NCBI GenBank assembly: GCA_030695685.1 | Contig: JAUYPT010000060.1 | Coordinates: 1 to 33,175, forward strand | From: Nanobdellota archaeon | Lineage (GTDB): Archaea > Nanobdellota > Nanobdellia > Woesearchaeales > GW2011-AR9 | Reading direction: 5' to 3' | DNA: 33,175 nucleotides | Shown here: piece by piece, positions 2,628 to 29,967 of the stretch | Layout: each line of letters starts with the position of its first letter | How positions within the stretch are numbered: position 1 is the first letter of the stretch | Translations under genes and position numbers: made by a program | Notes under the pieces: generated by a model | The model's database searches: none | Told to the model about the DNA's origin: nothing | What the model saw: the letters and a program-made list of their open reading frames with translations, nothing else

Positions 2628-3734
2628 ATGCTGAATTTTAATTACCATAGCTTAAAATTGCTGCAGCCGTTAGGTGAAGTAAAATATAAATTCAATGATG
2701 ACCTATCTGCTTTTATTTTTCCTGTTATTTTTCGAAACAAACATAGCCTCGTTTACAGAAGCACTTCCACTACGGTGGATAAAATTAGGTGGCTCGAGAG
2801 CATACATAATTATCGGCGGCAGCTGCGCGGCCATCTTCGCTATCTAGGAGATAATATGATTACTATCGACAATGAAAAAATGAAGCTTCAATCTAATTTA
2901 GGGCTGCTTTTCACGGTTTCTGATTATAACCAGCTCTGTACTGCCAGGGATTGCCGAAATGTACTGCCCATCGATAGAACATTTACCTCGCAGGGACCGT
3001 TATTTGCTGTTGACAGTGAATCTCTTTATGGCATTATCAGGACTTCGTATGCGGAAGGGGACGATTTAAGTACCATATTAAGAGAAAAGCTCTCACTAAA
3101 AGATATTGCTGTAGTTACGCTGCAGATGGCCGATACCTTGGATGATCTCGCTGCTAAGGATATTGTGCATCGGGACATCAAGCCGGGAAATATAATGTAC
3201 GATTTTAAAACTAAAAAAGCAACCCTGATTGATTTTGGCTTAGCCTATAGCCCTGCGGAGCAGGAAAGCCCCTTTCTGTCACCGGATCTGCAAAACCTGC
3301 TGAACGAAAGGGAAGATATAGAAATGGGAAGAATTCTAGGCACGCCAGCGTACCTTTCGCCGGAACACGTTCGGGGTAATACTTCTCCGCAGTCAGATTT
3401 GTTTAGCTTTGGTTTAACATTGTATGATTTTATTGTAGGGCATAACCTCAGTTTTAAATTTGACCATCAAGATACATATGCGCTTTTTTGGTATTTGATA
3501 AATTACGAAACACCAGAAAAAAAGAAATTAATGGATGAGGTTAATCGCGCTGTGGACAGTTCATCTTTTCGGCGCCATTTTCTCCCCTGTTTAGAATCAA
3601 TCTTGGATCCCGAGCCGCAGAAAAGAGAAAGGGATTCTCTTCGTACTTGTGCAGAACGTTTTCTTCATGGAAAAGAAAGATCATGGACAGAAATAATGGG
3701 TTCGTGGCTTAATAAATTTTTTTCGTTTAATTAA
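2628..3734 (+). CDS. Hanks-type Ser/Thr protein kinase with an atypical N-lobe
   Basis: Catalytic loop VHRDIKPGNIM, DFG motif LIDFGLA, and activation-segment end GTPAYLSPEHV. No canonical GxGxxG loop is visible; the nearest candidate is LGEVKYKF. Confidence 0.8.
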   Translation: MLNFNYHSLKLLQPLGEVKYKFNDDLSAFIFPVIFRNKHSLVYRSTSTTVDKIRWLESIHNYRRQLRGHLRYLGDNMITIDNEKMKLQSNLGLLFTVSDYNQLCTARDCRNVLPIDRTFTSQGPLFAVDSESLYGIIRTSYAEGDDLSTILREKLSLKDIAVVTLQMADTLDDLAAKDIVHRDIKPGNIMYDFKTKKATLIDFGLAYSPAEQESPFLSPDLQNLLNEREDIEMGRILGTPAYLSPEHVRGNTSPQSDLFSFGLTLYDFIVGHNLSFKFDHQDTYALFWYLINYETPEKKKLMDEVNRAVDSSSFRRHFLPCLESILDPEPQKRERDSLRTCAERFLHGKERSWTEIMGSWLNKFFSFN

Positions 3735-4069
3735 TCTATTCCCATCATCTGTTCTAAATCGGAAAGAGTGTAATTTTCCTGTTCTTCTGGAGATATGTTT
3801 AGGTATTCCGCTAACCGTTGACCATAATCTTGTTCAGCGTTCTTAATAACAGAAGGTTGTGCTTCAAATCGCAATAAACTAAACGCTTCCTGATACATTC
3901 TCCATGTAGCACTCCTGATTTGCTCATCGCTGCAGTTTTCCAAGCACTTATTCTTCAGCGTTCTGGCTTTAGGATAGGCTATTCTATAGAGTTCAATCTG
4001 CTCTTTCCTTGTTGAAGGAAATTCCCGCAGTGTGCGGATACTTTCTGCCTGATATCTGTTCATGGTCAT
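3731..4069 (-). CDS. Hypothetical protein (112 aa)
   Basis: Clean ORF convergent with the kinase gene (4-nt stop overlap) and divergent from the 4145 ORF. No recognisable motifs. Confidence 0.5.
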   Translation of the reverse strand: MTMNRYQAESIRTLREFPSTRKEQIELYRIAYPKARTLKNKCLENCSDEQIRSATWRMYQEAFSLLRFEAQPSVIKNAEQDYGQRLAEYLNISPEEQENYTLSDLEQMMGID

Positions 4070-4144
4070 TTTACCACTGTAAAGTTACATTTATTTATAA
4101 AACTTACCCCAAAATTAATAAAATAACGAATTTCAGCCATTTCT

Positions 4145-5374
4145 ATGGGCTACCCTTACGACGGACTTATTCCAGCGGCAATTCTCTATAATAACCCCGG
4201 ATTAACGCGGGACGAATTTGCCCGGGCCATGCGGCCGGCGGCTATTTTTAGTTCTAAATACTGGGGCAGTCTGGAAGCTGTTGCCCGAGTTCTGCATCTT
4301 CGAGCGCACAATGGGCGTAATGATGATCTCCGCTCTTATTACATTGAAGAAAATAGAGATTTTGGGTATTTTCGCACCATGACGGACTGGGATTGGGAAG
4401 ATGAAACACTAACGGTTATTCAGCGAAATCATCGCACTTTTACTGAAGAAGAATTTACGTTTGTTGATTTTTCTCCACTTCAGGAAAAAAAATTTCTGTA
4501 TTCAGACTGGGCATATAGATATTGCACAGATGACGATGAGGAAGAACGTTTTCATGTTGTGGAGAAAGATCGCTTCCTTGCTCTTTTTGAGACAGATGAT
4601 GACGATGGAGGAAATAATCCTGTTGATTATAATAGCGTGATAATCAAGTCTGTCATGGAACAAATTGGTCCTGAATATGAAGATACGACAATCTCTCGGT
4701 ATCAGCAGCAGAAAATTCGTGTCATTCCATTTCAAGTCTATGTTGAAAAAATTAAAACATATGATTCACTGGATGATTTTTTTGAAGAATACCCTCATCT
4801 GCATCCAGTACAGCGCTTTGACTGGGCGCAGGAGAAAGGAAGATTGGAAACAGGCTTCGACTGTCCAGCGCTGCGATGGCACAGAAAGGATGATACCTAT
4901 TTTCTTGATCAAGAGCATGCCAAAAAAGTATTGAAAGATAATTATTTTAACAAAGAACAGATGCGGCGTTATCCCGGCGGCAGCTGGATTGATTTAATCC
5001 TGACAGCAGAAGCAGTCAAAACAGGATTTTGGAAAGTATTGGAGCGCAGCGGTTTACAGCATCTGGTAGAATTTTTTATAGCACATCCAGAAGTTGTTCA
5101 GGTCTATAATCAGGCGCGGTTTGACATGGATATTTCTTCCTTTGCACAGAAAAAAAATTTAACAAATAGTGAATTCTTACGCTGGCGATTAGAAAATAAT
5201 ACCATTCATGAAACGAATCCGGAGAGTTTACGAAAAACAATAAGTATGGAAATAGAAGAACTGCAAAAGATTGCTGCACATTATCATAAGATTAGCCTTG
5301 ATGTTGAATTCAAAACTGACTTTTCTGCAGAAGAAATTGAACGGTTTATAGAAATTGCAATAAAAAAAGATTAA
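4145..5374 (+). CDS. Hypothetical acidic protein (409 aa)
   Basis: Long uninterrupted ORF with Asp/Glu-rich runs (CTDDDEEERF, ETDDDDGGNN) and many aromatic residues. I recognise no family. Confidence 0.6.
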   Translation: MGYPYDGLIPAAILYNNPGLTRDEFARAMRPAAIFSSKYWGSLEAVARVLHLRAHNGRNDDLRSYYIEENRDFGYFRTMTDWDWEDETLTVIQRNHRTFTEEEFTFVDFSPLQEKKFLYSDWAYRYCTDDDEEERFHVVEKDRFLALFETDDDDGGNNPVDYNSVIIKSVMEQIGPEYEDTTISRYQQQKIRVIPFQVYVEKIKTYDSLDDFFEEYPHLHPVQRFDWAQEKGRLETGFDCPALRWHRKDDTYFLDQEHAKKVLKDNYFNKEQMRRYPGGSWIDLILTAEAVKTGFWKVLERSGLQHLVEFFIAHPEVVQVYNQARFDMDISSFAQKKNLTNSEFLRWRLENNTIHETNPESLRKTISMEIEELQKIAAHYHKISLDVEFKTDFSAEEIERFIEIAIKKD

Positions 5375-8740: not shown

Positions 8741-8861
8741 TCACCCACGACGGGATTTGAACCCGTAAGTCTTGGCAGACAAAAGGTTGTCTTACCTTCC
8801 CTTGAGTTCAAACCAAGGGATTTTAAGACCTCCAGCAATTCCTGATTATGCGATGTGGGCG
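8741..8861 (-). tRNA. tRNA-Leu(UAA) with a ~33-nt intron in the anticodon loop and a long variable arm
   Basis: Minus-strand read: GCCCACA TC GCAT AATCAGGAA TTGC .. GAGGT CTTAAAA [TCCCTTGGTTTGAACTCAAGGGAAGGTAAGACA] ACCTT TT GTCT GCCA AGAC TT ACGGG TTCAAAT CCCGT CGTGGGT G. It has a canonical T-arm (GTTCAAATC), G18G19 in the D-loop, C32-U33-UAA-A37, and a class-II variable stem-loop consistent with Leu. The intron (about 8788..8820) contains the hairpin CCCTTG/CAAGGG. Either the acceptor/D junction or the 26 region carries one extra or mismatched nucleotide, so the exact ends are +/-1. Confidence 0.75.
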
Positions 8862-8956: not shown

Positions 8957-9214
8957 TTAATCATATGCTCTTGCCCTTTTATCAATGTCAGAAACAAACA
9001 ATAAATTTCTATCATAAAAGAGAGAATATTGAATCCTATAATCACCTACTCTAACTCTAAAAACTTTTTCTTTACAATTAACAACCCTTTTTACATCTTT
9101 AGGAAAAGGATCTTCTTTCAACTTTTCTATTTCAGTTATTATTCTTTTAGCGACATCTTTTTCCGCTTTCTTAAGAAACTTTTTAGCAGTAGAAGAGAAA
9201 TCTACATCAAACAT
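8957..9214 (-). CDS. relE: RelE/ParE-family type II toxin (mRNA interferase)
   Basis: 85 aa. ...KKFLKKAEKDVAKRIITEIEKLKEDPFP...FRVRVGDYRIQYSLFYDRNLLFVSDIDKRARAY matches the archaeal RelE pattern (R.G.YR..Y.......I..I..R..AY). It sits 1 nt downstream of a small partner ORF. Confidence 0.8.
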   Translation of the reverse strand: MFDVDFSSTAKKFLKKAEKDVAKRIITEIEKLKEDPFPKDVKRVVNCKEKVFRVRVGDYRIQYSLFYDRNLLFVSDIDKRARAYD

Positions 9215-9215
9215 T

Positions 9216-9413
9216 TTAGAATCCTAATTCTTTTTTCAAGTCAGAAAAAGGGGTTGTTTTCCCTTCTTTTAGTTCTTTCATGCTTTGTTCAAACCTTTTG
9301 CTTTCTTCTGTGGTCATAATTGTATCTGGATCAAACATGTGTTTTTTAATAAAATCTAAATCTACTTTGATTGTTTTTAATTCTTCGAGTATCTGTTTTA
9401 CTTCTGTTGCCAT
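9216..9413 (-). CDS. Putative antitoxin partner of RelE
   Basis: 65-aa acidic/helical ORF immediately upstream of, and co-directional with, the RelE gene. This is the classic antitoxin-first two-gene layout. A TATA-like ttatataaag lies about 30 nt upstream on the minus strand. Confidence 0.6.
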   Translation of the reverse strand: MATEVKQILEELKTIKVDLDFIKKHMFDPDTIMTTEESKRFEQSMKELKEGKTTPFSDLKKELGF

Positions 9414-14004: not shown

Positions 14005-14625
14005 ATGAAGCTTATTGTATTAGGGGCGCCAGGCAGCGGGAAAGGCACAGTAGCAGAACAATTACATCAGGAATTCAAGCTGTTCTCTCTTTCTGCCGGA
14101 GAATTGCTGCGGGAAGAAGTAGCCAAAAACACAACGTTAGGGAAAGAAATCAAGAAATATATGGAAAAAGGAAATCTTGTTCCCGATACGTTTGTCACGG
14201 AGATGGTTAAGCTGGAAGTCAAAACCAAAAAAGAGTACATACTTGACGGCTTCCCCCGCAGTGTCGAGCAGGCAAAAGCAATTGCAGATCTTAAGATTAC
14301 CAAAGTTATTTATTTAGACGTGCCGGAAAAGATAGTTATAGAAAGGCTATCAGGGCGGAGAATCTGTAAGGCTGGAAAACATACTTACCATCTCAAATAT
14401 CTTCCGCCCAAAAAGAAAGGTATCTGCGATAAAGACAAAACCAGATTAATTCAGCGCAAGGATGATTATCCGAAAGCAATACGAGAGCGGTTTAAGGTCT
14501 ATCATCACATAACCCAGCCGGTAATTCATTTTTATCAGCGTAAAAAAATACTGCAGAGAGTTGATGCCAGCCAATCACCGGAAAAAGTGTATGCTGCAGT
14601 GAAGAAGATTCTGAGGATGAAGTGA
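14005..14625 (+). CDS. adk: Adenylate kinase (long, bacterial-type with LID domain)
   Basis: P-loop LGAPGSGKGT, then ILDGFPRSVEQA. LID segment SGRRICKAGKHTYHLKYLPPKKKGICDKDKTRLIQRKDD. Confidence 0.9.
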   Translation: MKLIVLGAPGSGKGTVAEQLHQEFKLFSLSAGELLREEVAKNTTLGKEIKKYMEKGNLVPDTFVTEMVKLEVKTKKEYILDGFPRSVEQAKAIADLKITKVIYLDVPEKIVIERLSGRRICKAGKHTYHLKYLPPKKKGICDKDKTRLIQRKDDYPKAIRERFKVYHHITQPVIHFYQRKKILQRVDASQSPEKVYAAVKKILRMK

Positions 14626-16763: not shown

Positions 16764-18692
16764 ATGAAATACAAGAATTTTACGCTGGATCCGTTTCAGG
16801 AACAGGCCATTGAAGCTATTGAATCACGCTCTTCAGTTGTTGTTTCTGCGCCTACCGGCAGCGGCAAGACGTTGATTGCTGATTATATCGTTGAAAAGCA
16901 CAAAAATGACCCGCAGAAAATAATTTACACTGCTCCTATTAAAGCGCTTTCCAATCAGAAATACAAAGATTTCTCTCACGAATATGGGGAAGAAAATGTC
17001 GGCCTGATGACAGGAGATATCGTCATTAATCCTACGGCTAAAATTATTGTCATGACCACTGAAATTTACCGTAATATGGTCATCAGCAAGGATGAAAGCA
17101 TTCAAAATATTGCCTACGTTATCTTTGATGAAATTCACTATATTAATGATATTGAACGGGGCTATGTCTGGGAAGAATCGATCATTTACAGCCCGGAAAG
17201 CATCCGTTTTCTCTGCCTTTCGGCAACAATCCCCAATGCCGATGAATTCAGCAGCTGGATTCAGGCAATCAAAAAACATCCTGTCAAGACAATTGTATCA
17301 AGCTATCGCAATGTACCATTAGAACATGCTTTTTACGATCAGGAATTAGGGATAACAACATTAAAAGAAATTAAGTCTGCCCAGCAAGTGCCGCAGTACC
17401 GCGATGTTTTTCCGCGGCAGGGAAAAAAACAAAAAAGAACATTCCCCCAGCCGAGCCATCTTGATCTGATCAAAGAGCTGGGAGCAGAAAAACTGCCCTG
17501 CCTCTATTTCAGCTTTTCCCGAAAATCCTGCCAGATAAAAGCTCAGGAATTAGCGCGGCAGAATTTATTCCAGCGAAATCCAACCATCAGCCAGTTCTTT
17601 TCCACAACATTATCCCAGGCGCCAAGTGATGTTCAGAAGTTAAAATCAACATTAATGTTAAAAGAAACCCTGCCGCAAGGCATTGCCTTTCATCATGCTG
17701 GCCTGTTGCCGGTGATCAAGGAAGCAATTGAAGATCTTTTCGGCAAAGGTTTGATCAAGGTATTATATACGACGGAAACGTTTGCTGTCGGCATTAACAT
17801 GCCGGCAAAGACAGTCTGTTTCGACAGCTTGCGGAAATATGACGGCTTTAATTTCCGCTATTTGAATACGAAGGAATATTTTCAAATTGCCGGCAGGGCA
17901 GGAAGGAGAGGCATCGATACAGTTGGATATGTTGTCAGCGTTATTTTTCGGCCGACGTTTAGGTATGAAGAGATCAAAAGAATCACGACAAAAGATATCG
18001 AGCCGATAAAATCGCAATTTAAACTGTCTATCAATACGGTGCTTAATCTTATCAATCAGCACACGCCGGCAGAAATTGAGCAAATTCTGCGTTTAAGCTT
18101 TTTCTCGTATCAGAAATTCGGCAAAGATTATGCCAAAATCCCGACCAATGTTCTTCTTGCCCGCTACAGCAGCATTATCCGCAAGCTTACCAAGTATGAC
18201 TATGTTCAGGGCAATACGGTAACTGCAAAAGGCGTTTTCTCATCGAAAATCTTTGCTGATGAAATCAGCATTGGTGAAATCTTTGCCACTGATTTTGTCC
18301 ATCAGCTTGATGAATACCAGATACTGCTGCTGTTAGCAGCGCTGATCTATGAAAAAAGAGAAATGAACAAATTTACCCAGGAACATAAAAATGACCAGCT
18401 CAATAAGCTGAAAGCACTGCTTTCCCGGAATGACTACCTCAGCAAAGAAAAAAAATTCCTTGCCCTGCCGGAGATGACGACATTGATGTTCCCGATCTAT
18501 CATGGCAAAAGTTTCTTTGACTTATTGAGCAGCACGACATTATTGGAAGGCGATCTAATCCGTTTCTTCCTGCAGATTAAAGACAGGATCGGCCAGATTA
18601 AAAAGGCAACAGTGGATTATAAAGTAACCCAGAAGATGATCAACTGCCAGGGAATTATTGATAAAGCGTTAGAAGGAATTTATGTGGTCTAA
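16764..18692 (+). CDS. Ski2-like / HelY-like SF2 RNA helicase
   Basis: Motif I SAPTGSGKT, motif II FDEIH, motif III SAT, motif VI IAGRAGRRG, plus a C-terminal helical domain as in Ski2/Mtr4-type helicases. Confidence 0.85.
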   Translation: MKYKNFTLDPFQEQAIEAIESRSSVVVSAPTGSGKTLIADYIVEKHKNDPQKIIYTAPIKALSNQKYKDFSHEYGEENVGLMTGDIVINPTAKIIVMTTEIYRNMVISKDESIQNIAYVIFDEIHYINDIERGYVWEESIIYSPESIRFLCLSATIPNADEFSSWIQAIKKHPVKTIVSSYRNVPLEHAFYDQELGITTLKEIKSAQQVPQYRDVFPRQGKKQKRTFPQPSHLDLIKELGAEKLPCLYFSFSRKSCQIKAQELARQNLFQRNPTISQFFSTTLSQAPSDVQKLKSTLMLKETLPQGIAFHHAGLLPVIKEAIEDLFGKGLIKVLYTTETFAVGINMPAKTVCFDSLRKYDGFNFRYLNTKEYFQIAGRAGRRGIDTVGYVVSVIFRPTFRYEEIKRITTKDIEPIKSQFKLSINTVLNLINQHTPAEIEQILRLSFFSYQKFGKDYAKIPTNVLLARYSSIIRKLTKYDYVQGNTVTAKGVFSSKIFADEISIGEIFATDFVHQLDEYQILLLLAALIYEKREMNKFTQEHKNDQLNKLKALLSRNDYLSKEKKFLALPEMTTLMFPIYHGKSFFDLLSSTTLLEGDLIRFFLQIKDRIGQIKKATVDYKVTQKMINCQGIIDKALEGIYVV

Positions 18693-18694
18693 AT

Positions 18695-21600
18695 TCATTG
18701 CTTATTAAAATCATCAAGATATTCTTTAAAAAAGACATTAAATCTCTTATCATTATTCAATTTTTTCCTCAGCTTACTGAATGCTTTCAATTCAATCTGA
18801 CGGATGCGCTCTCGAGTTACCCCAAACTTAAGGGCAATCTCTTCCAGTGTTTCTTCATTCTGATGATAAAGGCCAAGGCGGTGGACAAGAGTATAATGTT
18901 CCTTGTCATTTAAATGCGTTAAGAAAGGAGTTAACATGGTATAAAATTCCTGGTACTCTAAAGAACCATAAATCCCTGCTTCAGCAGTATTATCTTTGAC
19001 AAACTCACCTAATGTTCCGTCATCAGATCCTGGAAGAGGATGATCAAAAGTGTTATATACTTCAGATTGACGGACAAGTTCCTTTGCTCTTCCAACATCA
19101 TTAGAAGTAAGATGTCGATGTTCTATATAATCAGTATTAACAAGTTCTGCTATCTGCCCATCCGTCGGCTCAGTGCCATGCTGCTGTAAAAATTTCTGCT
19201 GCACCCATCGAATTTTCTTTTCAGTTTCAAAAAGATGAACCGGCCGCCGGACAGTTGGGCCTTTATTAGCGATTGCTCTCATCATTCCCTGCCGTATCCA
19301 CCACGTTGCATAGGTCGAAAATTTAAAACCCCGGTCAGGATCAAATTTTGTCGCTGCCTTCATCATGCCGATGTTTCCTTCCTGAATTAAATCATCCATA
19401 GAAAGATGATTTTGTGGATATCGTTTCGCAACGCTTACTACTAAGCGCAGGTTTGCCTGGCACATTTTTTGTACTGCTTCTTTTCCTTGGTTAATAACCG
19501 GCCATAATTCCTGTTTTTGTGCTTCCGACAGAGGTAGAAAAGCTGCTACTGTCCGCTGATATTTTACATACGCAAGATGGTTTTTTTCTGTAGGAGTACC
19601 ATCTCGTTTTAAATCATGTGTAGGAACATGTATCAACAGAACATCATCAATGCTTAAAGGAATATTAAAACAAATGTTAGAGTTATAGTTATCGTACTCT
19701 GTCTCTTTATTGGCGAATTTAGTCCCTTCACGCTTTGCTTTCTTTTTCAGCGGCTTTGCCATGACAGCAGCAACTTTCTGCTGCAGATCTGCCTCCGTAG
19801 CAACATCAAGATAATAATATCTGAAACTGCTGTGCTTTCGCGAAGGTAATGGAAATTTCTTTAAAAGATACTGCAATTGGCTGGGCTTTACATCGAGCAG
19901 CTGGCATAAATGTGTCGTGTTTAAGTACACTCCTTGATGAAGATCAATAGCAGCAGCGCCGTCAGCAGGAGTCAAGATTGCCTTTCCCGCACGATCAAAA
20001 TAATACACATTTGATTTAGAACTTTGTTTTGCTGTTTCTGAAGCATCATACAAAATAGTTACAGGCAAGAGAAGATCTTCCGGCGTGTCAGAAGCAAGAA
20101 CATCTTCCCAGTTTCGTACAGCGTTCTCTAACTCTTCCTGCACTTTAATCTGAGCATATGCTACAAAACTGCCGTGACAATCAAAAGAATCGATTGCTTT
20201 TGCTAACCCAATGTTGCCCTGCTTAACAAGATCATCAATGGTCAGCGTGTGAGCTGTTCTATCACTATTTTCAATAATTTCCAGGACTAATGGCAGATGT
20301 GCAGAATATATATCCAGCCAGGCTGTCCGTCCTGCTTGTATGGTGATACCAAGCTCAACTTCTTCTTCCCTGCTTAACAGCGGAACCTCTCCTAACTTGG
20401 AGAAATAATAACCCAAAGAGTCAAAATCTTCTCTAACGGAATGATTTTTCCTTTCTTTTTTTCCTGTCGAGGAACGAGATCTTTTTTGTGGATGAGCATC
20501 AGCAATATCAACATTAGTAGGATCATTATTTAATTCATTTTGAGTTATAAGCGCATCGACACTAAGCACTTTTTCAGTTCCTTCTTGTGGAGATGAATAT
20601 TCAGGCATAATCTTTTTTTTCTCTATTTTTTTATAAACTGCTTCCTTTTTTGGCGGTGTCCGTCGCCATTCATTTATTGCCGCAATAATAGTGTTATCAA
20701 TAAAATAGAATGCTGCTGATCCTTGTTTCTTTTTTGTCAGGTGGTGCCGCTGAATATAGGTATATATCTGTTGACGGCCCACGCCAAATATCTCCTGCAG
20801 CGAATTTATGCCCACAAATGCGCCTTCGGTGAGATTAAGGCCATTACTGCCGTCGCCAGGAATAGTTTTCATTTCTCCATCCTTGGTAAAGTAATAATCG
20901 CTGGAATTAAATGCTCTTGCCTGAATTTTATTGGATGGAATATCTTTCTCTGGAAGTATGGAAGAAGGTACATCAACAATCGATTCTATACCAGAAACTG
21001 TTTTTTTTTCTTCAAGTGAAACAACATCATTCAAGGCAGGAATTTCAGTGCCAGAGGAAGATAATTGTTTGACAGGTAAACGTAGAGAAGTCGATTTTAA
21101 ACGTGCATTTTTTTTCCGTAACAAGTCAAGCGGTGATTCTTCCGCACCTTTCAAATAATCCTTTGTTCGTTGGAATCGGCCAGGAGATTTTACATAGATT
21201 TCAAGTATTCTCGAAAACCAGCTTTTGGAAAGGCCTACTTTCTGTCCAGCTTCTTCCTGCGTTGACTGTTCAAAAAGATAATATTCAATACCACGGCGGT
21301 ACCTCTCTGGAACTGTCTGCAAATCAGCCTTGATGCATGCTAACACTTCTTCCATAAAAAAAGGATCATTATTTTTTGCGTAGCCTTCATGGAGTAATTC
21401 CATAAATGTCCTTTTTTCCTGCTTATTAATTTTTGAATCCAGCGAAACATGATGTGAAAACAGAGAATGAGCGTAAAAATCAGCAAACTCTTCTTCTTTG
21501 TAACCTGTATCAATCCAATACTGCTGATAGGCAACAAAATCAGGTTCAGCGTGATGCTCCTGCCAATATTTCTCAGCAAAATTTCGAAGAATTTTTACTT

Positions 21601-23347
21601 TCTTCCGAGAATCACGATCTAATATATCCTCTCCTCGCAAATAATCAATCATTGATCCCCTAATACGATAAAATGCAAATGTCTCAAATTTGGCGCCATT
21701 TGATTCTGCCGGATTGTATTTTTTCAGCGCTTCCAACAAACCAATGTTGCCAGAGCTTACTAATTCTTCAAAAGGAACCGGATTAAAATCTTTAGCAATA
21801 GCTTTAATCTCCTTCAGTACTTTACCAGCAGTCTTCCGTATTCTTGCTTGATACCGCACAACAAGTGTTTCTTTTATTGCAGGGTCATGAGAATGGTAAT
21901 AATGCTGTGCCAAATCAGTCAACGAGAGTCTCTTTTCAGAAACTGCATCAGCTTCTTGTAGAACGGCTGCCGTATTTTCTTTCACAGCCGCAGCAGCAAT
22001 AATTGTTTCTAAAGGTTCTGAATCATTACTGTTTTTGATTACATCCTCTTTTTGCGCTGCCGAGTAGATAGCTTCAACTGTTGCAGGTATTTCCGCCTGT
22101 ATTTTTTTTATTTTTTTAGATTTTTTAAGTTCTGTGAGAGTAATATCATCAACAAAATAAAGTTTCTTACGCCCGTCCATGCGGAAAGGGATATTTCGAT
22201 TTTTAGCACGCTCATACGCTGCGGCAGGGTTAATACCCAATAATGTACCAATCGCTTCCTTGTCAAGGTACCTCGAATCTGGGATGGTATCAACAACAGA
22301 ATCAATAATTTCATTAAAAGGACCAGAAAGCCCCGCATTTAAATGCAGGGATGAATGACTTTCTGTTCCTTTTATGCAAGAAGGACTTTGTCCTTCTGCA
22401 CAGAAAGACTTAGTCTTTCTTGTGTCACAAAGTGCGGGAGTTAAGAAAGCGTCTCTTTTCAAGCCTCGCTCTTTAGAGCGAGGTGAGACGCTTTCCCGCA
22501 CTTTTATGACTTTTTGGGGATCATCTTTCTCCACAAGAGGTTTTTTCACAATAGACTCCAGGAGAGAAACAGTCTGCTCTGCGATGACTTCTTTCTGCGT
22601 TTTGCTCAGTGTAAAAACACCGTCATTAAAAACAACATTGGGAAAAAAGTAAATATTGCCGAGATCAATCTTATACCAGCGCTCGCCCCAAAGCGATTTT
22701 GAGGGAATTTTCTCCCGAGCAAGAATTTTCTCCACGTCTTTCCTGCTTTTGCCGCTGAGCTGCTGCAATTGATGTGTGGTAAGATAAGCACCATCTTCGA
22801 CAGGAATGTACTGCCAGGAAATCTCTTTCATCCTAACGAAAGATCCAGGAGAAGGAGTTTTTGTCATAGCAACAAAACAGAGTTTATCGACAGCATCAAA
22901 GATATTGCTATTATCAACAATGTCTAAGGCAAATTCTCCATCAAGACAGAAATACATTTCTTCTCCAACGCGTACTGTTTTCGCTAATTCTTTCTTTGCT
23001 GCGTAGTCTAAGACGTCCTTGCCGCGGCCGGGAGAAAGATCACCCATACTGCAAATCTGATCGCTGGAGAAATAAAACTGGCCGTTGGAAAATTCATCAA
23101 TATTAATATAACGCCTTTTTCTGGGAATACCATCTCCATCCACAATTGTATAGGGCATTCCTGCCAGCAGATCTAAAGAATAAGCATCGCCTTCCGAGAG
23201 CATTCCCGTTGCCTGTGCTTCCTCAAAGGTTATATCCGCAGCACGAAACAGAACAGGAAGATCCTTGCTGCGAAGATGCCGCTCACGGGAAAGATACTGT
23301 ACAAGATCATCAAGAGGTACATAGAGTTCCGTTTCTTTTGCTGTCAA
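18695..23347 (-). CDS. Giant multi-domain protein: three sigma-70-family modules interleaved with excisionase-type winged-HTH units
   Basis: Single uninterrupted 1,550-aa frame. The ORF-track start is a TTG (23347) preceded by a GGGGGG run about 11 nt upstream. The first in-frame ATG is codon 49 (about 23203). Module details are in the sub-features and findings. Confidence 0.85.
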   Translation of the reverse strand: MTAKETELYVPLDDLVQYLSRERHLRSKDLPVLFRAADITFEEAQATGMLSEGDAYSLDLLAGMPYTIVDGDGIPRKRRYINIDEFSNGQFYFSSDQICSMGDLSPGRGKDVLDYAAKKELAKTVRVGEEMYFCLDGEFALDIVDNSNIFDAVDKLCFVAMTKTPSPGSFVRMKEISWQYIPVEDGAYLTTHQLQQLSGKSRKDVEKILAREKIPSKSLWGERWYKIDLGNIYFFPNVVFNDGVFTLSKTQKEVIAEQTVSLLESIVKKPLVEKDDPQKVIKVRESVSPRSKERGLKRDAFLTPALCDTRKTKSFCAEGQSPSCIKGTESHSSLHLNAGLSGPFNEIIDSVVDTIPDSRYLDKEAIGTLLGINPAAAYERAKNRNIPFRMDGRKKLYFVDDITLTELKKSKKIKKIQAEIPATVEAIYSAAQKEDVIKNSNDSEPLETIIAAAAVKENTAAVLQEADAVSEKRLSLTDLAQHYYHSHDPAIKETLVVRYQARIRKTAGKVLKEIKAIAKDFNPVPFEELVSSGNIGLLEALKKYNPAESNGAKFETFAFYRIRGSMIDYLRGEDILDRDSRKKVKILRNFAEKYWQEHHAEPDFVAYQQYWIDTGYKEEEFADFYAHSLFSHHVSLDSKINKQEKRTFMELLHEGYAKNNDPFFMEEVLACIKADLQTVPERYRRGIEYYLFEQSTQEEAGQKVGLSKSWFSRILEIYVKSPGRFQRTKDYLKGAEESPLDLLRKKNARLKSTSLRLPVKQLSSSGTEIPALNDVVSLEEKKTVSGIESIVDVPSSILPEKDIPSNKIQARAFNSSDYYFTKDGEMKTIPGDGSNGLNLTEGAFVGINSLQEIFGVGRQQIYTYIQRHHLTKKKQGSAAFYFIDNTIIAAINEWRRTPPKKEAVYKKIEKKKIMPEYSSPQEGTEKVLSVDALITQNELNNDPTNVDIADAHPQKRSRSSTGKKERKNHSVREDFDSLGYYFSKLGEVPLLSREEEVELGITIQAGRTAWLDIYSAHLPLVLEIIENSDRTAHTLTIDDLVKQGNIGLAKAIDSFDCHGSFVAYAQIKVQEELENAVRNWEDVLASDTPEDLLLPVTILYDASETAKQSSKSNVYYFDRAGKAILTPADGAAAIDLHQGVYLNTTHLCQLLDVKPSQLQYLLKKFPLPSRKHSSFRYYYLDVATEADLQQKVAAVMAKPLKKKAKREGTKFANKETEYDNYNSNICFNIPLSIDDVLLIHVPTHDLKRDGTPTEKNHLAYVKYQRTVAAFLPLSEAQKQELWPVINQGKEAVQKMCQANLRLVVSVAKRYPQNHLSMDDLIQEGNIGMMKAATKFDPDRGFKFSTYATWWIRQGMMRAIANKGPTVRRPVHLFETEKKIRWVQQKFLQQHGTEPTDGQIAELVNTDYIEHRHLTSNDVGRAKELVRQSEVYNTFDHPLPGSDDGTLGEFVKDNTAEAGIYGSLEYQEFYTMLTPFLTHLNDKEHYTLVHRLGLYHQNEETLEEIALKFGVTRERIRQIELKAFSKLRKKLNNDKRFNVFFKEYLDDFNKQ
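18758..19573 (-). other. Sigma module C: complete RpoD-like sigma-70 (regions 1.2, 2, 3, 4), aa ~1259-1530 of the giant ORF
   Basis: NLRLVVSVAKRYPQNHLSMDDLIQEGNIGMMKAATKFDPDRGFKFSTYATWWIRQGMMRAIANKGPTVRRPVHLFE covers regions 2.1-2.4/3.0 and is very close to the RpoD consensus NLRLVVSIAKKY...DLIQEGNIGLMKAVDKF....G.KFSTYATWWIRQAI.R.IA...RTIR.PVH. TLEEIALKFGVTRERIRQIELKAFSKLRKKL is the region 4.2 HTH. Confidence 0.9.
20108..20422 (-). other. Sigma module B: region 1.2 plus region 2 only, aa ~976-1080
   Basis: LGYYFSKLGEVPLLSREEEVELG is region-1.2-like. HTLTIDDLVKQGNIGLAKAIDSFDCHGSFVAYAQIKV is region-2.1/2.2-like. I can see no region 4 after it. Confidence 0.65.
21194..21922 (-). other. Sigma module A: FliA/sigma-28-like (regions 2-4), aa ~476-718
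   Basis: FEELVSSGNIGLLEALKKYNPAESNGAKFETFAFYRIRGSMIDYLR resembles the FliA-type ...F.TYA..RIRGAM.DELR. LQTVPERYRRGIEYYLFEQSTQEEAGQKVGLSKSWFSRILE is a region-4-like HTH. Confidence 0.75.
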
Positions 23348-23403
23348 TCGTATTCAGCCCCCCAGCTGTGTTACTGCTTTGCAAACATCTAACCACTCCA
23401 TAA

Positions 23404-23892
23404 CTAGAAAGGATCTTCAAACTTCATTTCCAGCGTGCCTTCGCATTTCTTGAGCAATCCATAAATGCGTGTCCTTTCCGCGAGATCAGCAGCGGTTTCT
23501 TTTCCTGTAATATCCTCGCCTCTGCTCATGCCGCTCAATCCTGTTCCGAGAATACTGCCATTATTATCTATTCTCCAGTAATGGTCAGAATTTTCCTGCT
23601 GGCGTATCCAATAGACAGGTTGAGAATTAGAGTGAATTCGTGACCCTATTTCTATGTCACTATAACCATCATACAAATCAATATATGTCCCCTGCACTTT
23701 GCCGCACTGTTGATATTTTCCTGCTTGGCATCGATTCCCTTCGACAAAAACAGGATACATTTTCATCTCGCAGCCATTGACATACTGAACATAGGTATCG
23801 TTATCACCACAGCCACTTCTCGTAGATTTGACTACAGCACATGTCGCTGCTATTCCTACTGCTAATGTCATTACAGTCCTTTTGAGATCCAT
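23404..23892 (-). CDS. Hypothetical secreted protein
   Basis: Signal-peptide-like N-terminus MDLKRTVMTLAVGIAATCAVV, with several Cys in the mature part. I prefer the Met at 23892, one nt after the thrS stop, over the overlapping 23907 start in the ORF track. Confidence 0.55.
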   Translation of the reverse strand: MDLKRTVMTLAVGIAATCAVVKSTRSGCGDNDTYVQYVNGCEMKMYPVFVEGNRCQAGKYQQCGKVQGTYIDLYDGYSDIEIGSRIHSNSQPVYWIRQQENSDHYWRIDNNGSILGTGLSGMSRGEDITGKETAADLAERTRIYGLLKKCEGTLEMKFEDPF

Positions 23893-23893
23893 A

Positions 23894-25831
23894 TTAACCC
23901 CCCACAAAACTAATTCGCTTGCTGACTAATTTTGGCAATGGCAGCGTATCAAACGGCCTGCCTTTTGTTTTATCATCAATGATTGCAACAAGGTCGGTAA
24001 AACTCATCTTTAATTCTTCATTTTTTTCCCGGTCACGAACAACGAAACTTTTGCTATCATTATTTTTAAATGAGTGCATTTCATTATCACCAATAACTAA
24101 CGTATACGGCACCCACTCTAATGCTGCAGTGCGGATGCGTTTTCCGACGCCCTCTAAACGGTCATCAATGTCAACCCGAATATTCAATTCATTCAATTTT
24201 GCCGCTACCTGCTGGCAGTATTCAAAATGATTGTCTAACGATACAGGAATTAACCGCACCTGTGTTGGCGCTAACCATAACGGTAATGACGGAACCTTTC
24301 CCACCTTTTCTTCCATTGCCGCTTTTTCCAATAGCGCATAGATGATTCTTTCCACCGCACCGGAAGGTGAAAGGTGCAGAATTAAAGGATGGCGTTTCTT
24401 GCCTTCCTTGTCAACATAATTAATATCATAGCGTTCCGCATTTTCCACGTCAATCTGATCTGTCGTCAAAGCAGAACATTTATCTAACGCATCGACAAAA
24501 TTCCATTCGTATTTCATGCTGTAATAAAAGAAGCGTTCATTCCACATTTCCACCAATGCAGGTTTGCCCCATTCTTTCACTAAACTAGTGACAAAATCCT
24601 TATTTTGCTCCCAGAAATCTTTGGTCATCCGAATGGCAAATTCAAGATCATCCGGCAATTTCAATCCGATGCCTTCCTGCACTTCCTTCGCTAATTGAAA
24701 GCGGCGTTTCATTTCGCTTTTCGCCTGCGCTTCATCAGCGCAAAAGGCATGACAGTCCGGCATCGTAAACGACCGCAGGCGGCGTAATCCTGTTAATTCC
24801 CCATGCTGTTCCGCGCGGAAACTGTAGCGGGTTAATTCGTACAGCCAGACTGGCAAGTGCTTATAGGAAACTTGTGCGTCGTGCATTTCCAGAAATTGGC
24901 CGAAACAGGCAGCAAATCGCAAAAATACTTTTTTGTTAGGCGTTTGAATGGTGTATTGCCGTGCCGGAAAACGATTAAGATAGCTCTTCAATGAAGGATG
25001 TTCAAAATCATACATGATCGGCGATTCAATTTCCATCCCGCCATATTCTTTTGTTTTCTGAGTCACCCAGCGTTCGATCAATCCTTTGATAAACCGCCCT
25101 TTGGGATAGTACCGTAAATTACCGGGATCAGAGCCGGGCTCATAATCAACCAGTTCCAATTTCCGCATCAAATGGACATGCGGCGGCTCTTCGTTGGCAA
25201 CCCTACTTTTGGCCATTTCGTACGCTGCCAGCTTTTGCAGTCCGGACTGCTCTGTAAATTCAAAACCGTTAAATTTTTTCTTCTCCTTGTTGTAGGTCAA
25301 GGGATTTAATTTTCCTTTTCCATCGAGAATAAACCACTGTGACACTAACGTTTTTTCGGCTGCGAGCGCTTTGCTTTCGTCGCTCCCGTGTTTATGTTTA
25401 CTTTCCGCATCATCAACGCTGAATTCCCTGCTTAATTCTGATAAGGGATGGCCTTTACAGGAAATCGTAAACGATTTATACCAGCCAAACGGCGCCCGGG
25501 TAACACTATATTTTTCCGCCAGTATTTTTTCAGCATCTTTCAGAACCTCTTCGGCGATCTTAGGAGCTGCGAGAGTAGAGCTTAAATGAGCATACGGATA
25601 CAGTACAAGTGTTTTGGCATTAACCTGCTGGGCAATATTTTTGATTTCCTGCACATATTTTTGAACGACAGCAGCAGTGTTTTTTTCATCCCTTTTTTCG
25701 ACAGCCGTAAACACAACCAGGCATTCCTTGACTTTGTGCACTCCTTTATCAACGCTGTCATCAGCCCCCTTAAAAGCCTTCTTTTGAGCTGCAAATTCAA
25801 TGAAATCAGCGTGGATGGTCAGTATTTTCAT
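23894..25831 (-). CDS. thrS: Threonyl-tRNA synthetase, archaeal type with N-terminal DTD-like editing domain
   Basis: The N-terminus [13 protein letters not shown]...[16 protein letters not shown]...[25 protein letters not shown] matches the archaeal ThrRS editing domain (compare Pyrococcus ...YPFAHLSSELA...[23 protein letters not shown], from memory). A class II catalytic core and a C-terminal anticodon-binding domain follow. Confidence 0.92.
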   Translation of the reverse strand: [645 protein letters not shown]

Positions 25832-25856: not shown

Positions 25857-25866
25857 TTATATAAAA
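25857..25866 (-). promoter_or_regulatory. TATA-box-like element for thrS
   Basis: On the minus strand, cttttttatataagc is centred about 30 nt upstream of the thrS ATG at 25831. Confidence 0.45.
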
Positions 25867-29247: not shown

Positions 29248-29967
29248 ATGGCAAAACAAACAGTAGAAACATTGGTAGAAGGCGGTAAAGCAACCGCTGC
29301 ACCCCCGCTTGGCCCAGCACTTGGCCCGACAGGTGTTAATATTGGGCGTGTTGTCAGTGAAATTAATGCTAAAACTGCAGGCCTTAAAGGAATGCAGGTT
29401 CCTGTCAAAGTTATTGTTGATACTCAAAGTAAAGAATTTTTAATTGAAATTGGAACACCTCCCGCAGCAGCCTTGCTTAAAAAAGAGGCAGGCGTAGAGA
29501 AAGGCGCTGGAAACCCTCTTGCTGAGAAAGTTGCTGATCTACTGATTGAACAAATTATTAAAGTAGCTAAAACAAAAGAAGATTCACTTCTGGGAAAGGG
29601 CCTTAAAGCAAAGGTAAAAGAAATTGTTGGAACCTGCCAGTCGATAGGAATTCTGATTGAAGGCATGACAGCGCAGGAAGCATTGAAAGCAATCGATAAT
29701 GGACAATTTGATGAAAAAATCCGCCTCGGAAGAACAGAATTAACTGCAGAAGAAAAAGCACGGGTAGAAGAAGAGCGGAAGAAACTTCAGGAAGCTATGG
29801 GTGCACGGCGTGCTGAGTTTGAAGCCAAAGCTAAAGTTATTATGAAAGAATTGGAAGGCAAGGAAAACAAGAAAATCAGGACTGCGATGGCAGAAGCTGG
29901 CATCCCTGTTCCAATCATTAATGAATTGGCGCCTGTTGAGAAAGCTGAAGAAGCAACGAAAAAATAA
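29248..29967 (+). CDS. rpl11: 50S ribosomal protein uL11 (archaeal type) with a long charged C-terminal extension
   Basis: VEGGKATAAPPLGPALGPTGVNIGRVVSEINAKTAGLKGMQVPVKVIVD is the archaeal L11 N-domain, followed by the RNA-binding C-domain. About 80 extra Lys/Glu/Ala-rich residues follow residue ~160. Confidence 0.9.
   Translation: MAKQTVETLVEGGKATAAPPLGPALGPTGVNIGRVVSEINAKTAGLKGMQVPVKVIVDTQSKEFLIEIGTPPAAALLKKEAGVEKGAGNPLAEKVADLLIEQIIKVAKTKEDSLLGKGLKAKVKEIVGTCQSIGILIEGMTAQEALKAIDNGQFDEKIRLGRTELTAEEKARVEEERKKLQEAMGARRAEFEAKAKVIMKELEGKENKKIRTAMAEAGIPVPIINELAPVEKAEEATKK

What the first reader, a model, noticed from the sequence alone, without database searches (positions are those of the whole stretch)
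18695..23347. Three bacterial-type sigma-70 modules fused in one 1,550-aa ORF inside an archaeal gene neighbourhood
One uninterrupted frame carries three separate sigma-70-family segments. (A) aa ~476-718 is FliA/sigma-28-like: GNIGLLEALKKYNP...KFETFAFYRIRGSMIDYLR plus a region-4 HTH QEEAGQKVGLSKSWFSRILE. (B) aa ~976-1080 has region 1.2/2 only: LGYYFSKLGEVPLLSREEEVELG ... DDLVKQGNIGLAKAIDSFD. (C) aa ~1259-1530 is a complete RpoD-like sigma: NLRLVVSVAKRY...[42 protein letters not shown]...RRPVH and TLEEIALKFGVTRERIRQIELKAFSKLRK. Everything around it is archaeal in type: ThrRS with the archaeal editing domain 50 nt-scale upstream in the same orientation, archaeal uL11, an intron-containing tRNA, and TATA-box promoters. 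Archaeal RNAP is recruited by TBP/TFB and has no known sigma-binding surface, so even one sigma is unexpected. A tandem three-sigma polyprotein with extra HTH units is not an architecture I can place. Possible roles, all speculative: a repurposed multivalent DNA-binding or promoter-melting protein, a factor that acts on a bacterial partner's RNAP, or a mobile-element or viral gene. I vaguely recall stand-alone sigma-like genes being remarked on in some DPANN bins but cannot verify that. The fused multi-sigma layout is the novelty claim.
Basis: partly seen in the sequence, partly recalled or inferred. Interest (0 to 1): 0.92.

Follow-up and report, generated by a model that had tools for sequence, protein, structure and literature searches.

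The report
Triple sigma-factor fusion in DPANN archaeon
A small symbiotic-type archaeon (Woesearchaeota-like) carries a real, selectively maintained 1,550-residue gene that strings three different bacterial sigma-factor modules and at least four small DNA-binding units into one protein; sigma genes in such archaea were already reported, but this fusion has only one known relative.

Summary
ORF 18695-23347(-) encodes 1,550 aa with three separate Sigma70_r2 hits, each above Pfam's cutoff. Module A (aa ~471-718) is a complete but divergent FliA/WhiG type. Module B (aa ~976-1080) has regions 1.2 and 2.1-2.2 only and has lost the DNA-melting residues. Module C (aa ~1260-1531) is a complete RpoD/SigA type that keeps almost all core-binding, -10 and -35 residues. 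Four paralogous HTH_17 units alternate with the modules.

The host is archaeal: DPANN-type ThrRS (70% identical to Woesearchaeota), archaeal uL11, an intron-containing tRNA-Leu and TATA boxes at -30.

It is not an assembly artefact. An independent contig (L005) has the same thrS-orf163-sigma-helicase order, though its protein lacks H2 and module A. dN/dS is 0.11-0.46, and codon usage matches the host.

A search of 1.84 billion representative proteins found only that one relative. Module C's nearest bacterial sigmas are 36-46% identical.

Sigma-70 genes in Woesearchaeota are already published (PMC8204110), so "a sigma in an archaeon" is not new. The heterologous multi-sigma fusion is new. Function is inferred: most likely a multi-headed DNA-binding regulator. 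An RNA polymerase partner is not excluded.

The parts
18695..23347 (-). Whole 1,550-aa multi-sigma ORF (TTG start, with a GGGGGG Shine-Dalgarno-like run 8-13 nt upstream)
   Evidence: orthologue P0002 begins at the aligned position
22808..23347 (-). N-terminal region aa 1-180. No family assignment. It is the most conserved part between the two orthologues (aa 11-70: 15-19 of 20 identical in sliding windows, mostly 17-19).
   Evidence: the AF2 model was poor (pLDDT 38)
22628..22807 (-). HTH_17-like unit H1 (aa ~181-240)
   Evidence: strand-helix-helix-strand-strand, pLDDT up to 82
21038..22480 (-). Cassette aa ~290-770 (unit H2 plus sigma module A), present here but absent from orthologue P0002
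22118..22285 (-). HTH_17-like unit H2 (aa ~355-410)
   Evidence: (HTH_17 at 368-402, 18 bits)
21194..21937 (-). Sigma module A (aa ~471-718): complete but divergent FliA/WhiG-type (group 3) sigma with r2, r3 and r4
   Evidence: WhiG model 97.8 bits over model positions 18-250 of 270; PDB WhiG 6pfj, FliA
20663..20914 (-). HTH_17-like unit H3 (aa ~812-895)
   Evidence: (HTH_17 at 850-876)
20108..20422 (-). Sigma module B (aa ~976-1080): region 1.2 plus regions 2.1-2.2 only. The positions equivalent to W433/W434/Q437/R441 are replaced. There is no r3 or r4.
   Evidence: AF2 pLDDT 81-94
19778..20014 (-). HTH_17/MerR-like unit H4 (aa ~1112-1190)
   Evidence: (MerR_1 at 1145-1179)
18755..19570 (-). 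Sigma module C (aa ~1260-1531): complete RpoD/SigA-type sigma (divergent 1.2, then r2, r3, r4) with canonical core-binding, -10, extended -10, sigma-finger and -35 residues
23404..23892 (-). orf167: a 162-aa Cys-rich protein with an N-terminal hydrophobic segment. It co-occurs with the sigma gene (70% identical in L005) and is absent from sigma-less relatives.
   Evidence: no family or PDB hit
23894..25831 (-). thrS (archaeal/DPANN-type ThrRS), the likely first gene of the operon. Its TAA stop abuts the ATG of orf167.
25858..25865 (-). TTTATATA box 34 nt upstream of the thrS start codon, the putative archaeal promoter for thrS-orf167-sigma
16764..18692 (+). Convergent Ski2-like (DSHCT) helicase, the conserved far boundary of the variable island

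Best explanation
Shown:
- This is a genuine, vertically maintained chromosomal gene of a Woesearchaeota-like DPANN archaeon.
- It forms a two-gene cassette (orf167 plus the sigma gene) between thrS and a convergent Ski2-like helicase.
- The protein is a chain: N-domain - H1 - [H2 - sigma A (FliA/WhiG type)] - [H3 - sigma B (r1.2-r2.2 stub)] - [H4 - sigma C (RpoD/SigA type)]. H1-H4 are paralogous excisionase-type HTH_17 units.

Inferred:
- It is probably transcribed from the archaeal TATA promoter of thrS.
- It probably acts inside the archaeal cell as a multi-headed, sequence-specific DNA-binding regulator or DNA-bridging protein.
- The sigma-2 and sigma-4 domains of modules A and C, together with the HTH_17 units, would each read a short DNA element.
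- Module C would read TTGACA-like and TATAAT-like elements. It lacks the autoinhibitory region 1.1 (no Sigma70_r1_1 hit), so it could bind DNA without bacterial core RNA polymerase.
- Module B would serve as a structural or protein-contact domain.
- No bacterial core enzyme is assumed.
For: The ORF and its three r2 hits are real.

The host is archaeal and DPANN:
- ThrRS is 70% identical to Woesearchaeota proteins.
- uL11 passes NF002232 (by recollection the archaeal-type L11 model) and fails the bacterial model.
- The contig has a tRNA with an intron and TATA boxes at -30.

There is independent confirmation. Contig L005, from another sample, shows the same gene order, and its orthologue is 55-61% identical.

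The gene is under purifying selection: dN/dS is 0.22 for the N-terminus, 0.23 for B, and 0.18/0.25/0.11 for r2/r3/r4 of C. GC content and codon usage of every segment match host genes. No DNA-level repeats are present.

All recognised domains are DNA-binding folds. Foldseek matches the AF2 model to sigma-70 chains with probability 1.0.

Module C is identical to E. coli sigma-70 at 16 of 19 functional positions, with one further conservative change (Y425F). The -35 readers TRERIRQ are also identical.

The thrS TATA box, the abutting stop/start codons and the G-rich ribosome-binding-like sites support an operon. The paper PMC8204110 reports sigma-70 genes alongside TBP/TFB/TFE in DPANN genomes.
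Against: - Module C also keeps residues with no known role outside a bacterial holoenzyme: the core-binding helix 2.2 (D403, Q406, E407, N409, M413) and the region 3.2 "finger". The finger is 16 of 20 identical between the two orthologues, above the protein average. A pure DNA binder would be expected to let these drift, as module B has.
- Sigma-70-type promoter-like sites are not enriched in the window: 42 found vs 52 +/- 6.4 expected, and 44 vs 41.5 +/- 6.5. No obvious target set is visible.
- No DNA binding, expression or partner has been shown.
- Module A is supported by this assembly alone.
Confidence: 0.42

Rival explanations
1. Module C, and perhaps module A, is still a working sigma factor for a bacterial-type core RNA polymerase that does not belong to the archaeon. 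The polymerase would belong, for example, to a bacterial partner or host cell to which this DPANN symbiont attaches. The protein would reprogram that cell's transcription, much as phage-encoded sigma factors do.
For: Module C retains the core-binding 2.2 helix, the -10 melting residues, the extended -10 readers H455/E458, the sigma-finger motif and the -35 readers. All are under purifying selection. Its nearest relatives are genuine housekeeping SigA genes in dnaG-sigA operons. No bacterial-type promoters are enriched in the archaeon's own DNA.
Against: - The 1,550-aa protein has no signal peptide or known export signal (sequence).
- By general knowledge, the known hosts of DPANN archaea are archaea.
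- There is no evidence for a bacterial partner.
- The 1,250 residues in front of module C, with their HTH units, have no precedent in functional sigma factors.
Confidence: 0.17
2. The protein contacts the archaeon's own RNA polymerase. Sigma-2 would bind the Rpo1 clamp coiled-coil, the homologue of the bacterial beta-prime clamp helices. The protein would then act as an alternative or auxiliary initiation factor alongside TBP/TFB.
For: - RNA-polymerase-contact residues are conserved although no bacterial polymerase is expected in this cell.
- The gene is a chromosomal operon member with host-like codon usage.
- Sigma genes recur in Woesearchaeota (PMC8204110).
Against: No sigma-archaeal polymerase interaction is known. 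Nothing in the window tests the idea. The family has only two members among about 15 billion proteins, which argues against a core transcription role.
Confidence: 0.1
3. The orf167-sigma pair is cargo of a mobile element, a virus remnant or a defence island (for example an MzaA-like anti-virus sigma), not a host regulator.
For: - The thrS-helicase interval is variable. Sigma-less relatives carry 9 or more unrelated, unannotated genes there.
- The cassette evolves faster (61% identity) than its flanking genes (87% and 97%).
- MzaA and phage sigma profiles are among the hits.
- A ParE toxin gene lies elsewhere in the window.
Against: - The MzaA score of 270 bits is far below the 800-bit cutoff and reflects only generic sigma similarity. 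No MZA partner genes are present.
- No integrase, flanking repeats or att-like sites were found.
- There are no relatives in IMG/VR.
- Codon usage is host-like.
- The cassette has been in the same position in two lineages since they diverged (dS about 1).
Confidence: 0.12
4. It is an artefact: a chimeric assembly or bacterial contamination, hidden frameshifts that join separate genes, or a decaying pseudogene.
For: Module A and unit H2 (aa ~290-770) are seen only in this assembly. Several database "multi-sigma" proteins turned out to be exact duplications or assembly chimeras.
Against: - An independent contig has the same junctions, with N-terminus, B and C in one frame.
- Archaeal genes flank the ORF on both sides.
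- Composition and codon usage are uniform.
- There are no internal DNA repeats.
- The open frame runs 4.65 kb at 39% GC.
- dN/dS is well below 1.
Confidence: 0.04

Closest known systems
Bacterial primary/primary-like sigma factors (group 1/2: RpoD, SigA, RpoS)
   Same: Module C has regions 2, 3 and 4 above Pfam cutoffs. It aligns end to end with E. coli sigma-70 residues 379-602 and B. subtilis SigA. [11 protein letters not shown] and TRERIRQIE are identical, and H455 and E458 are kept. Foldseek probability is 1.0 to sigma-70 chains.
   Different: - Identity to any bacterial sigma is only 36-46%.
- It fails every RpoD/RpoS equivalog cutoff (for example 271 vs 555 bits).
- There is no region 1.1.
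- Sigma-3 has an insertion of about 12 residues.
- It is the C-terminal fifth of a 1,550-aa protein.
- It is encoded in an archaeon with no known bacterial core polymerase.
FliA/WhiG (group 3, sigma-28) factors
   Same: Module A matches WhiG/FliA models over their full length (positions 18-250 of 270). It carries the group-3 motif F-E-T-F-A-x-x-R-I-R-G-x-M-I-D. Its best solved relatives are WhiG (6pfj) and FliA.
   Different: It scores 91-98 bits, against subfamily and equivalog cutoffs of 190-343. Region 4 alone is below the Pfam cutoff (18 vs 24.1 bits). It sits internally in a fusion protein, and archaea have no bacterial flagellar regulon.
Sigma-70 family genes reported in DPANN archaea (fam00359 of Castelle et al. 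2021, PMC8204110)
   Same: These are bacterial-type sigma genes in Woesearchaeota-type genomes, validated there by co-encoded archaeal markers. No anti-sigma factor was found and the function is unknown. The same situation applies here.
   Different: The paper describes them only as sigma-70 genes and mentions no fused multi-module architecture. I could not retrieve their sequences, so membership is untested. Module C's nearest relatives in the databases searched are bacterial.
Orthologue P0002 (1,066 aa, Logan SRR22388335 contig, locus L005)
   Same: It has the same N-domain, H1, H3, module B, H4 and module C, the same flanking genes, and 55-61% identity.
   Different: It lacks H2 and module A, so it carries two sigma modules instead of three.
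MzaA (sigma factor of the MZA anti-phage system) and phage-encoded sigma factors (phrog_351)
   Same: They share generic sigma r2-r4 similarity (270 bits to NCBIfam MzaA, 189 bits in PADLOC, 301 bits to phrog_351).
   Different: The MzaA score is far below its cutoff (800). No MZA partner genes or phage genes are nearby, and nothing was found in IMG/VR.
Excisionase/MerR-type HTH_17 DNA-binding domains
   Same: Units H1-H4 hit HTH_17 or MerR_1 and share the pattern G-x-Y-L...L...G...Y-F/Y-x-D. The predicted fold is strand-helix-helix-strand-strand.
   Different: The units are repeated at least 4 times in one chain and each is coupled to a sigma module. Individual units score below the Pfam cutoff.

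Membership tests
Sigma-70 family (Pfam clan; TIGR02937 superfamily) | Region 2 (PF04542) above the gathering score | tested here: met
   A 39.3, B 26.8 and C 78 bits, against a cutoff of 24. TIGR02937 gives 68.4 bits for module A alone, against a cutoff of 42.9.
Sigma-70 family | Region 4 (PF04545) HTH above the gathering score | tested here: met
   C scores 41.6 bits (cutoff 24.1). A scores 18 bits, below cutoff. B has none.
Group 1/2 sigma (RpoD/SigA/RpoS equivalogs) | Passes the NCBIfam equivalog cutoff | tested here: not met
   Best scores are 271 vs 555 (RpoD), 260.6 vs 354 (RpoD_Cterm) and 260 vs 379-394 (RpoS).
Group 1/2 sigma | Canonical -10 and -35 recognition and core-binding residues | tested here: met
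   Module C is identical to sigma-70 at 16 of 19 positions, with Y425F conservative and L402D and T440M changed. The -35 reading motif TRERIRQ (residues 583-589, including R584, E585, R588, Q589) is identical.
Group 1 sigma | N-terminal region 1.1 (PF03979) | tested here: not met
   There is no Sigma70_r1_1 hit in the whole protein at E <= 1.
Functional sigma factor | Binds bacterial core RNA polymerase and directs promoter-specific initiation | not testable with these tools
   This needs biochemistry. The 33-kb window holds no RNA polymerase subunit gene of either type.
FliA/WhiG subfamily | Passes the TIGR02479 / NF004935 cutoffs | tested here: not met
   Module A alone scores 91.4 vs 189.6 and 97.8 vs 343, although coverage is full-length.
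DPANN sigma-70 family (fam00359, PMC8204110) | Encoded on a contig with Woesearchaeota/DPANN marker genes | tested here: met
   The closest named ThrRS proteins are from Ca. Woesearchaeota (70% identity), followed by other DPANN. uL11 passes NF002232, which I recall to be the archaeal-type L11 model, and fails the bacterial one.
DPANN sigma-70 family (fam00359) | Sequence clusters with the published family members | not testable with these tools
   The family identifier is not in the held supplements, so no sequences were available.
MZA anti-phage system (MzaA) | Passes the MzaA equivalog cutoff and has MzaB-E neighbours | tested here: not met
   The score is 270 vs 800. The only PADLOC hits among the 8 neighbouring ORFs are generic helicase hits on the Ski2-like helicase.
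Sigma / anti-sigma pair | A co-transcribed anti-sigma factor with a recognisable anti-sigma domain | tested here: inconclusive
   orf167 co-occurs with the sigma gene. It has no family or PDB hit, and only about 5 residues precede its hydrophobic segment.
HTH_17 (PF12728) | Score above the gathering cutoff | tested here: inconclusive
   The whole protein scores 30.4 vs 27. Single units score 13.6-18.2 bits. Paralogy among the units is supported by pairwise BLAST down to 1.7e-10.

The most novel reading that the evidence does not exclude
Module C is an active sigma head that still engages an RNA polymerase. That polymerase would be either a bacterial partner cell's enzyme (a cross-domain transcription takeover by a DPANN symbiont) or the archaeon's own enzyme through the homologous clamp coiled-coil. 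The three-sigma, multi-HTH chain would then tether that polymerase to several promoter types at once. It would be the first sigma-dependent process tied to an archaeon.
Probability: 0.15. Interest if true: 0.9.

Novelty: new variant of a known kind. Interest (0 to 1): 0.62.

Why it matters
Sigma factors are the defining initiation factors of bacterial RNA polymerase. Archaea use TBP, TFB and TFE instead. Sigma genes in DPANN genomes have been noted but never explained.

This locus gives an unusually informative case:
- Within one polypeptide, one sigma module has decayed at its DNA-melting positions. Another has kept nearly every residue needed for core binding and for -10/-35 recognition, under purifying selection. 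So something in or around this archaeon still selects for canonical sigma chemistry.
- The protein is easy to synthesise and to test against bacterial and archaeal polymerases and DNA. This makes the question "what do sigma factors do in archaea?" experimentally approachable.

The caveat is rarity. With two members among about 15 billion proteins, it is a lineage curiosity rather than a general mechanism.

Tried and rejected
- **Full-length word-index search.** It returned only 3 hits because low-information words filled the candidate list. I repeated it with module C alone and with an exhaustive HMMER search.
- **GTDB genome scan with the whole protein.** I inferred the host from ThrRS names instead.
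- **Look-up of the window's own protein.** It is not on record.
- **JGI metagenome scan with N-terminal motifs and IMG/VR scan.** Neither found relatives.
- **AF2 model of aa 1-290 from a 2-sequence alignment.** pLDDT was 38, which is unusable, so no fold search was run on it.
- **PDB sequence searches.** The N-terminus gave nothing significant. orf167 gave only a 27-residue match to a 46-residue SUN1 fragment (E 0.007), judged spurious.
- **Apparent multi-sigma proteins in the top hits (P0244-P0251, P0351).** I rejected them as exact internal duplications or assembly chimeras of ordinary bacterial rpoD/rpoS. P0003 is a bacterial sigma with a long repeat tail, located in a dcw cluster.
- **MzaA/defence reading.** Rejected on score and context.
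- **Sigma-70 promoter enrichment test.** Negative.
- **Self-BLAST of the whole protein.** It reported no off-diagonal hits. Aligning excised units was needed to see the HTH paralogy.
- **Paper searches.** The relative's sample accession and the phrases for fused sigma factors found nothing relevant. The published family identifier was not in the held supplements.
Full report

Yes. The ORF listing gives one uninterrupted frame at 18695..23347 on the - strand, 1,550 aa.

Pfam on the whole protein reports Sigma70_r2 with three stretches, plus Sigma70_r4, r1_2, r3 and HTH_17. I then scanned six consecutive pieces separately:
- aa 470-746: r2 39.3 bits (cutoff 24) and a sub-threshold r4 (18 bits).
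- aa 975-1112: r1_2 38.6 bits and r2 26.8 bits, with nothing further.
- aa 1294-1550: r2 78, r3 32.5 and r4 41.6 bits.

NCBIfam places module A with WhiG/FliA. It scores 97.8 bits and covers model positions 18-250 of 270, but is below the equivalog cutoffs. The closest solved relatives of module A are WhiG 6pfj and FliA. Module C is placed with RpoD/SigA/RpoS at about 260-276 bits, also below the equivalog cutoffs.

**2. Is the context archaeal?**

Yes.
- ThrRS carries the archaeal editing domain and passes the NF003068 ThrRS equivalog model (803 bits, cutoff 484).
- uL11 passes NF002232 (206.6 bits, cutoff 162), by my recollection the archaeal-type L11 model, and fails the bacterial model (105.8 vs 141.85).
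- ARAGORN run with its intron option finds tRNA-Leu(TAA) at c[8741..8861] with a 33-nt intron. The default run and Rfam missed it.
- TTTATATA/TTTATAAA boxes lie 30-34 nt upstream of the start codons of at least eight genes, thrS included. This is the pattern of archaeal, largely leaderless promoters.
- Sigma-70-type promoter-like sites are not enriched over shuffled sequence (42 vs 52 +/- 6.4, and 44 vs 41.5 +/- 6.5).
- The closest named ThrRS proteins come from Candidatus Woesearchaeota (70% identity), followed by Micrarchaeota, Nanoarchaeota and Aenigmarchaeota.

The host is therefore a Woesearchaeota-like DPANN archaeon.

**3. Local anatomy**

The thrS stop codon abuts the ATG of a 162-aa Cys-rich ORF (23404-23892) that has an N-terminal hydrophobic segment. 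Fifty-six nucleotides later the sigma ORF starts with TTG. Both downstream genes are preceded by a GGGGG(G) run and have no TATA box, whereas thrS has one at -34. I infer a thrS-orf167-sigma operon driven by an archaeal promoter. The sigma ORF ends 2 nt from a convergent Ski2-like (DSHCT) helicase.

Aligning excised segments shows four paralogous HTH_17/excisionase-like units: H1 ~181-240, H2 ~355-410, H3 ~812-895 and H4 ~1112-1190. The architecture is therefore N-domain - H1 - [H2-A] - [H3-B] - [H4-C].

**4. Artefact or real gene?**

An independent 4.3-kb contig from another sample (L005) carries the thrS C-terminus (87% identical), an orf163 (70% identical to orf167), a 1,066-aa orthologue (P0002), and the end of the same helicase on the opposite strand. 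P0002 aligns with aa 1-275 and ~790-1550 of the window protein and lacks H2 plus module A.

Nei-Gojobori dN/dS between the two genes is 0.22 (N-terminus), 0.23 (B), and 0.18, 0.25 and 0.11 (r2, r3 and r4 of C). dS is about 1, so the values are rough but clearly below 1. All four segments have host-like GC content and RSCU correlations of 0.62-0.75, against 0.52-0.82 for host genes. There are no DNA-level repeats in the gene.

The gene is real, long resident and under purifying selection. Only the H2 + module A cassette rests on this single assembly.

**5. How rare is it?**

HMMER read all 1.84 billion cluster representatives, using aa 351-1550 as the query. Apart from the protein itself, only P0002 scores high (897 bits). 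The next hits are 225 bits or lower.

The hits with three matched stretches are exact internal duplications or assembly chimeras of ordinary bacterial rpoD/rpoS. One is an enterobacterial rpoS next to an nlpD-like LysM/M23 gene.

Module C's best relatives are bacterial SigA/RpoD proteins at 36-46% identity. The top two lie in dnaG-sigA operons. The GTDB, JGI metagenome and IMG/VR scans added nothing.

In sigma-less Woesearchaeota relatives, the thrS-helicase interval holds other, unannotated genes. The cassette therefore sits in a variable island.

**6. Residue-level reading**

I used the HMMER alignment to E. coli sigma-70, in which M379 aligns with M1295, and a MAFFT alignment of the modules.

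- **Module C.** It keeps D403, Q406, E407, N409 and M413 (core-binding helix 2.2). It keeps F427, T429, Y430, W433 and W434 (capture of the -10 non-template strand), with Y425 conservatively changed to F. It keeps R436, Q437 and R441, and H455 and E458 (extended -10). The -35 reading motif TRERIRQ is identical. Only L402 and T440 are non-conservatively changed. These functional assignments come from established sigma-70 literature as I recall it, not from a tool.
- **Region 3.2 of module C.** This "finger" segment is 16 of 20 identical between the orthologues, above the protein-wide 61%.
- **Module A.** It shows the group-3 pattern (FETFAFYRIRGSMIDYLR).
- **Module B.** It keeps the GNIGL helix but has I/F and K at the W433/W434 positions, E at Q437, and no r3 or r4. 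Even so, it is conserved between the orthologues and folds confidently (pLDDT 81-94).

Foldseek matches the AF2 model of aa 771-1550 to sigma-70 chains in holoenzyme structures with probability 1.0.

**7. Mechanism**

Shown:
- A selectively maintained archaeal gene made only of DNA-binding-type domains.
- One canonical sigma head, one group-3 head and one degenerate sigma-2 stub.

Inferred, as the best explanation (confidence about 0.4): a multi-headed DNA-binding regulator or DNA-bridging protein that works without a bacterial core enzyme. Because region 1.1 is absent, autoinhibition of DNA binding would not apply.

The main difficulty is that residues whose only known role is in holoenzyme contacts are conserved (helix 2.2 and the finger). 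This keeps two rivals alive:
- Action on a bacterial-type polymerase belonging to a partner cell (about 0.17).
- Contact with the archaeal polymerase clamp (about 0.1).

A mobile-element or defence origin (about 0.12) is suggested only by the island position. It is contradicted by codon usage, by the lack of element hallmarks, by the sub-threshold MzaA score (270 vs 800) and by the absence of viral relatives. An artefact is unlikely (about 0.04).

**8. Comparison with what is known**

Castelle et al. 2021 (PMC8204110) already reported sigma-70 genes in DPANN. They found them particularly prevalent in Woesearchaeota, excluded mis-binning, found no anti-sigma factors, and left the function unknown. 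So a sigma gene in such an archaeon is known.

What is not described is a chain of heterologous sigma modules interleaved with HTH_17 units. It does not appear in that paper, in a phrase search of the literature, or in the sequence databases beyond one orthologue.

I file it as a new variant of a known kind. It belongs to the sigma-70 superfamily by domain criteria. It fails the equivalog tests for RpoD, RpoS, FliA/WhiG and MzaA. Its functional membership, meaning that it binds core polymerase and directs initiation, cannot be tested here.

**9. Verdict**

- Interest is 0.62. A transcription specialist would find a canonical sigma head maintained in an archaeon surprising, and it is easy to test in vitro. 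However, the family is tiny and its function is unproven.

Noticed in passing
window 8741-8861 (-): tRNA-Leu(TAA) with a 33-nt intron. It is found only when ARAGORN is run with its intron option. Default ARAGORN and Rfam at gathering threshold report no tRNA anywhere in the window.
   Followed up: partly
window 8957-9214 (-) and 9216-9413 (-): A ParE-family toxin (PF05016, 34.8 bits) with a 65-aa upstream partner that has no family hit. They lie in the AT-rich gap (GC about 0.31) beside the tRNA gene.
   Followed up: partly
window 29248-29967 (+): uL11 is 239 aa long. The NF002232 L11 model covers residues 1-158, and an 80-residue Lys/Glu-rich C-terminal extension follows. The gene is followed by purB and serA rather than by uL1/uL10.
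   Followed up: no
window 14005-14625 (+): A bacterial-type adenylate kinase with a lid domain (TIGR01351, 231 bits) sits in the archaeal contig. This fits the bacterial-like gene content reported for DPANN.
   Followed up: no
window 16764-25831; loci L006, L008 and the ERZ27297570 contig: The interval between thrS and the Ski2-like helicase is a variable island among Woesearchaeota relatives. It holds 2 genes here and in L005, 9 unannotated genes in L006, and other genes (including a Polbeta nucleotidyltransferase and Pro_dh) in the ERZ27297570 contig; in L008 the genes downstream of thrS are also unrelated and unannotated, but no helicase was seen in the locus.
   Followed up: partly
window 23167-23317 (-), aa 11-60 of the big protein: The most conserved stretch between the two orthologues (17-19 of 20 identical) is the unannotated N-terminus, not any sigma module. 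It has no Pfam or PDB hit, and the AF2 model is unusable.
   Followed up: partly
window 23404-23892 (-): orf167 is a Cys-rich small protein with an N-terminal hydrophobic segment. It is found only where the sigma gene is found (70% identical in L005, absent from L006-L008). It has no family assignment and is a possible partner of the sigma protein.
   Followed up: partly
protein P0284: A 447-aa protein made of two diverged copies of (sigma r4 - r1.2 - r2), which is a permuted repeat. Its origin is unknown. It is unrelated to this locus but is another odd sigma architecture.
   Followed up: no
loci L009 / L010, 8001-9305: An enterobacterial-type rpoS (downstream of an nlpD-like LysM/M23 gene) with an exact internal tandem duplication of regions 1.2-2, present in two NCBI assemblies.
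   Followed up: no
window 3731-4145: The divergent gene pair 3731-4069(-) / 4145-5374(+) shares a short intergenic region. A TTTATAAA box faces each way, at -32 and -51 from the respective start codons.
   Followed up: no
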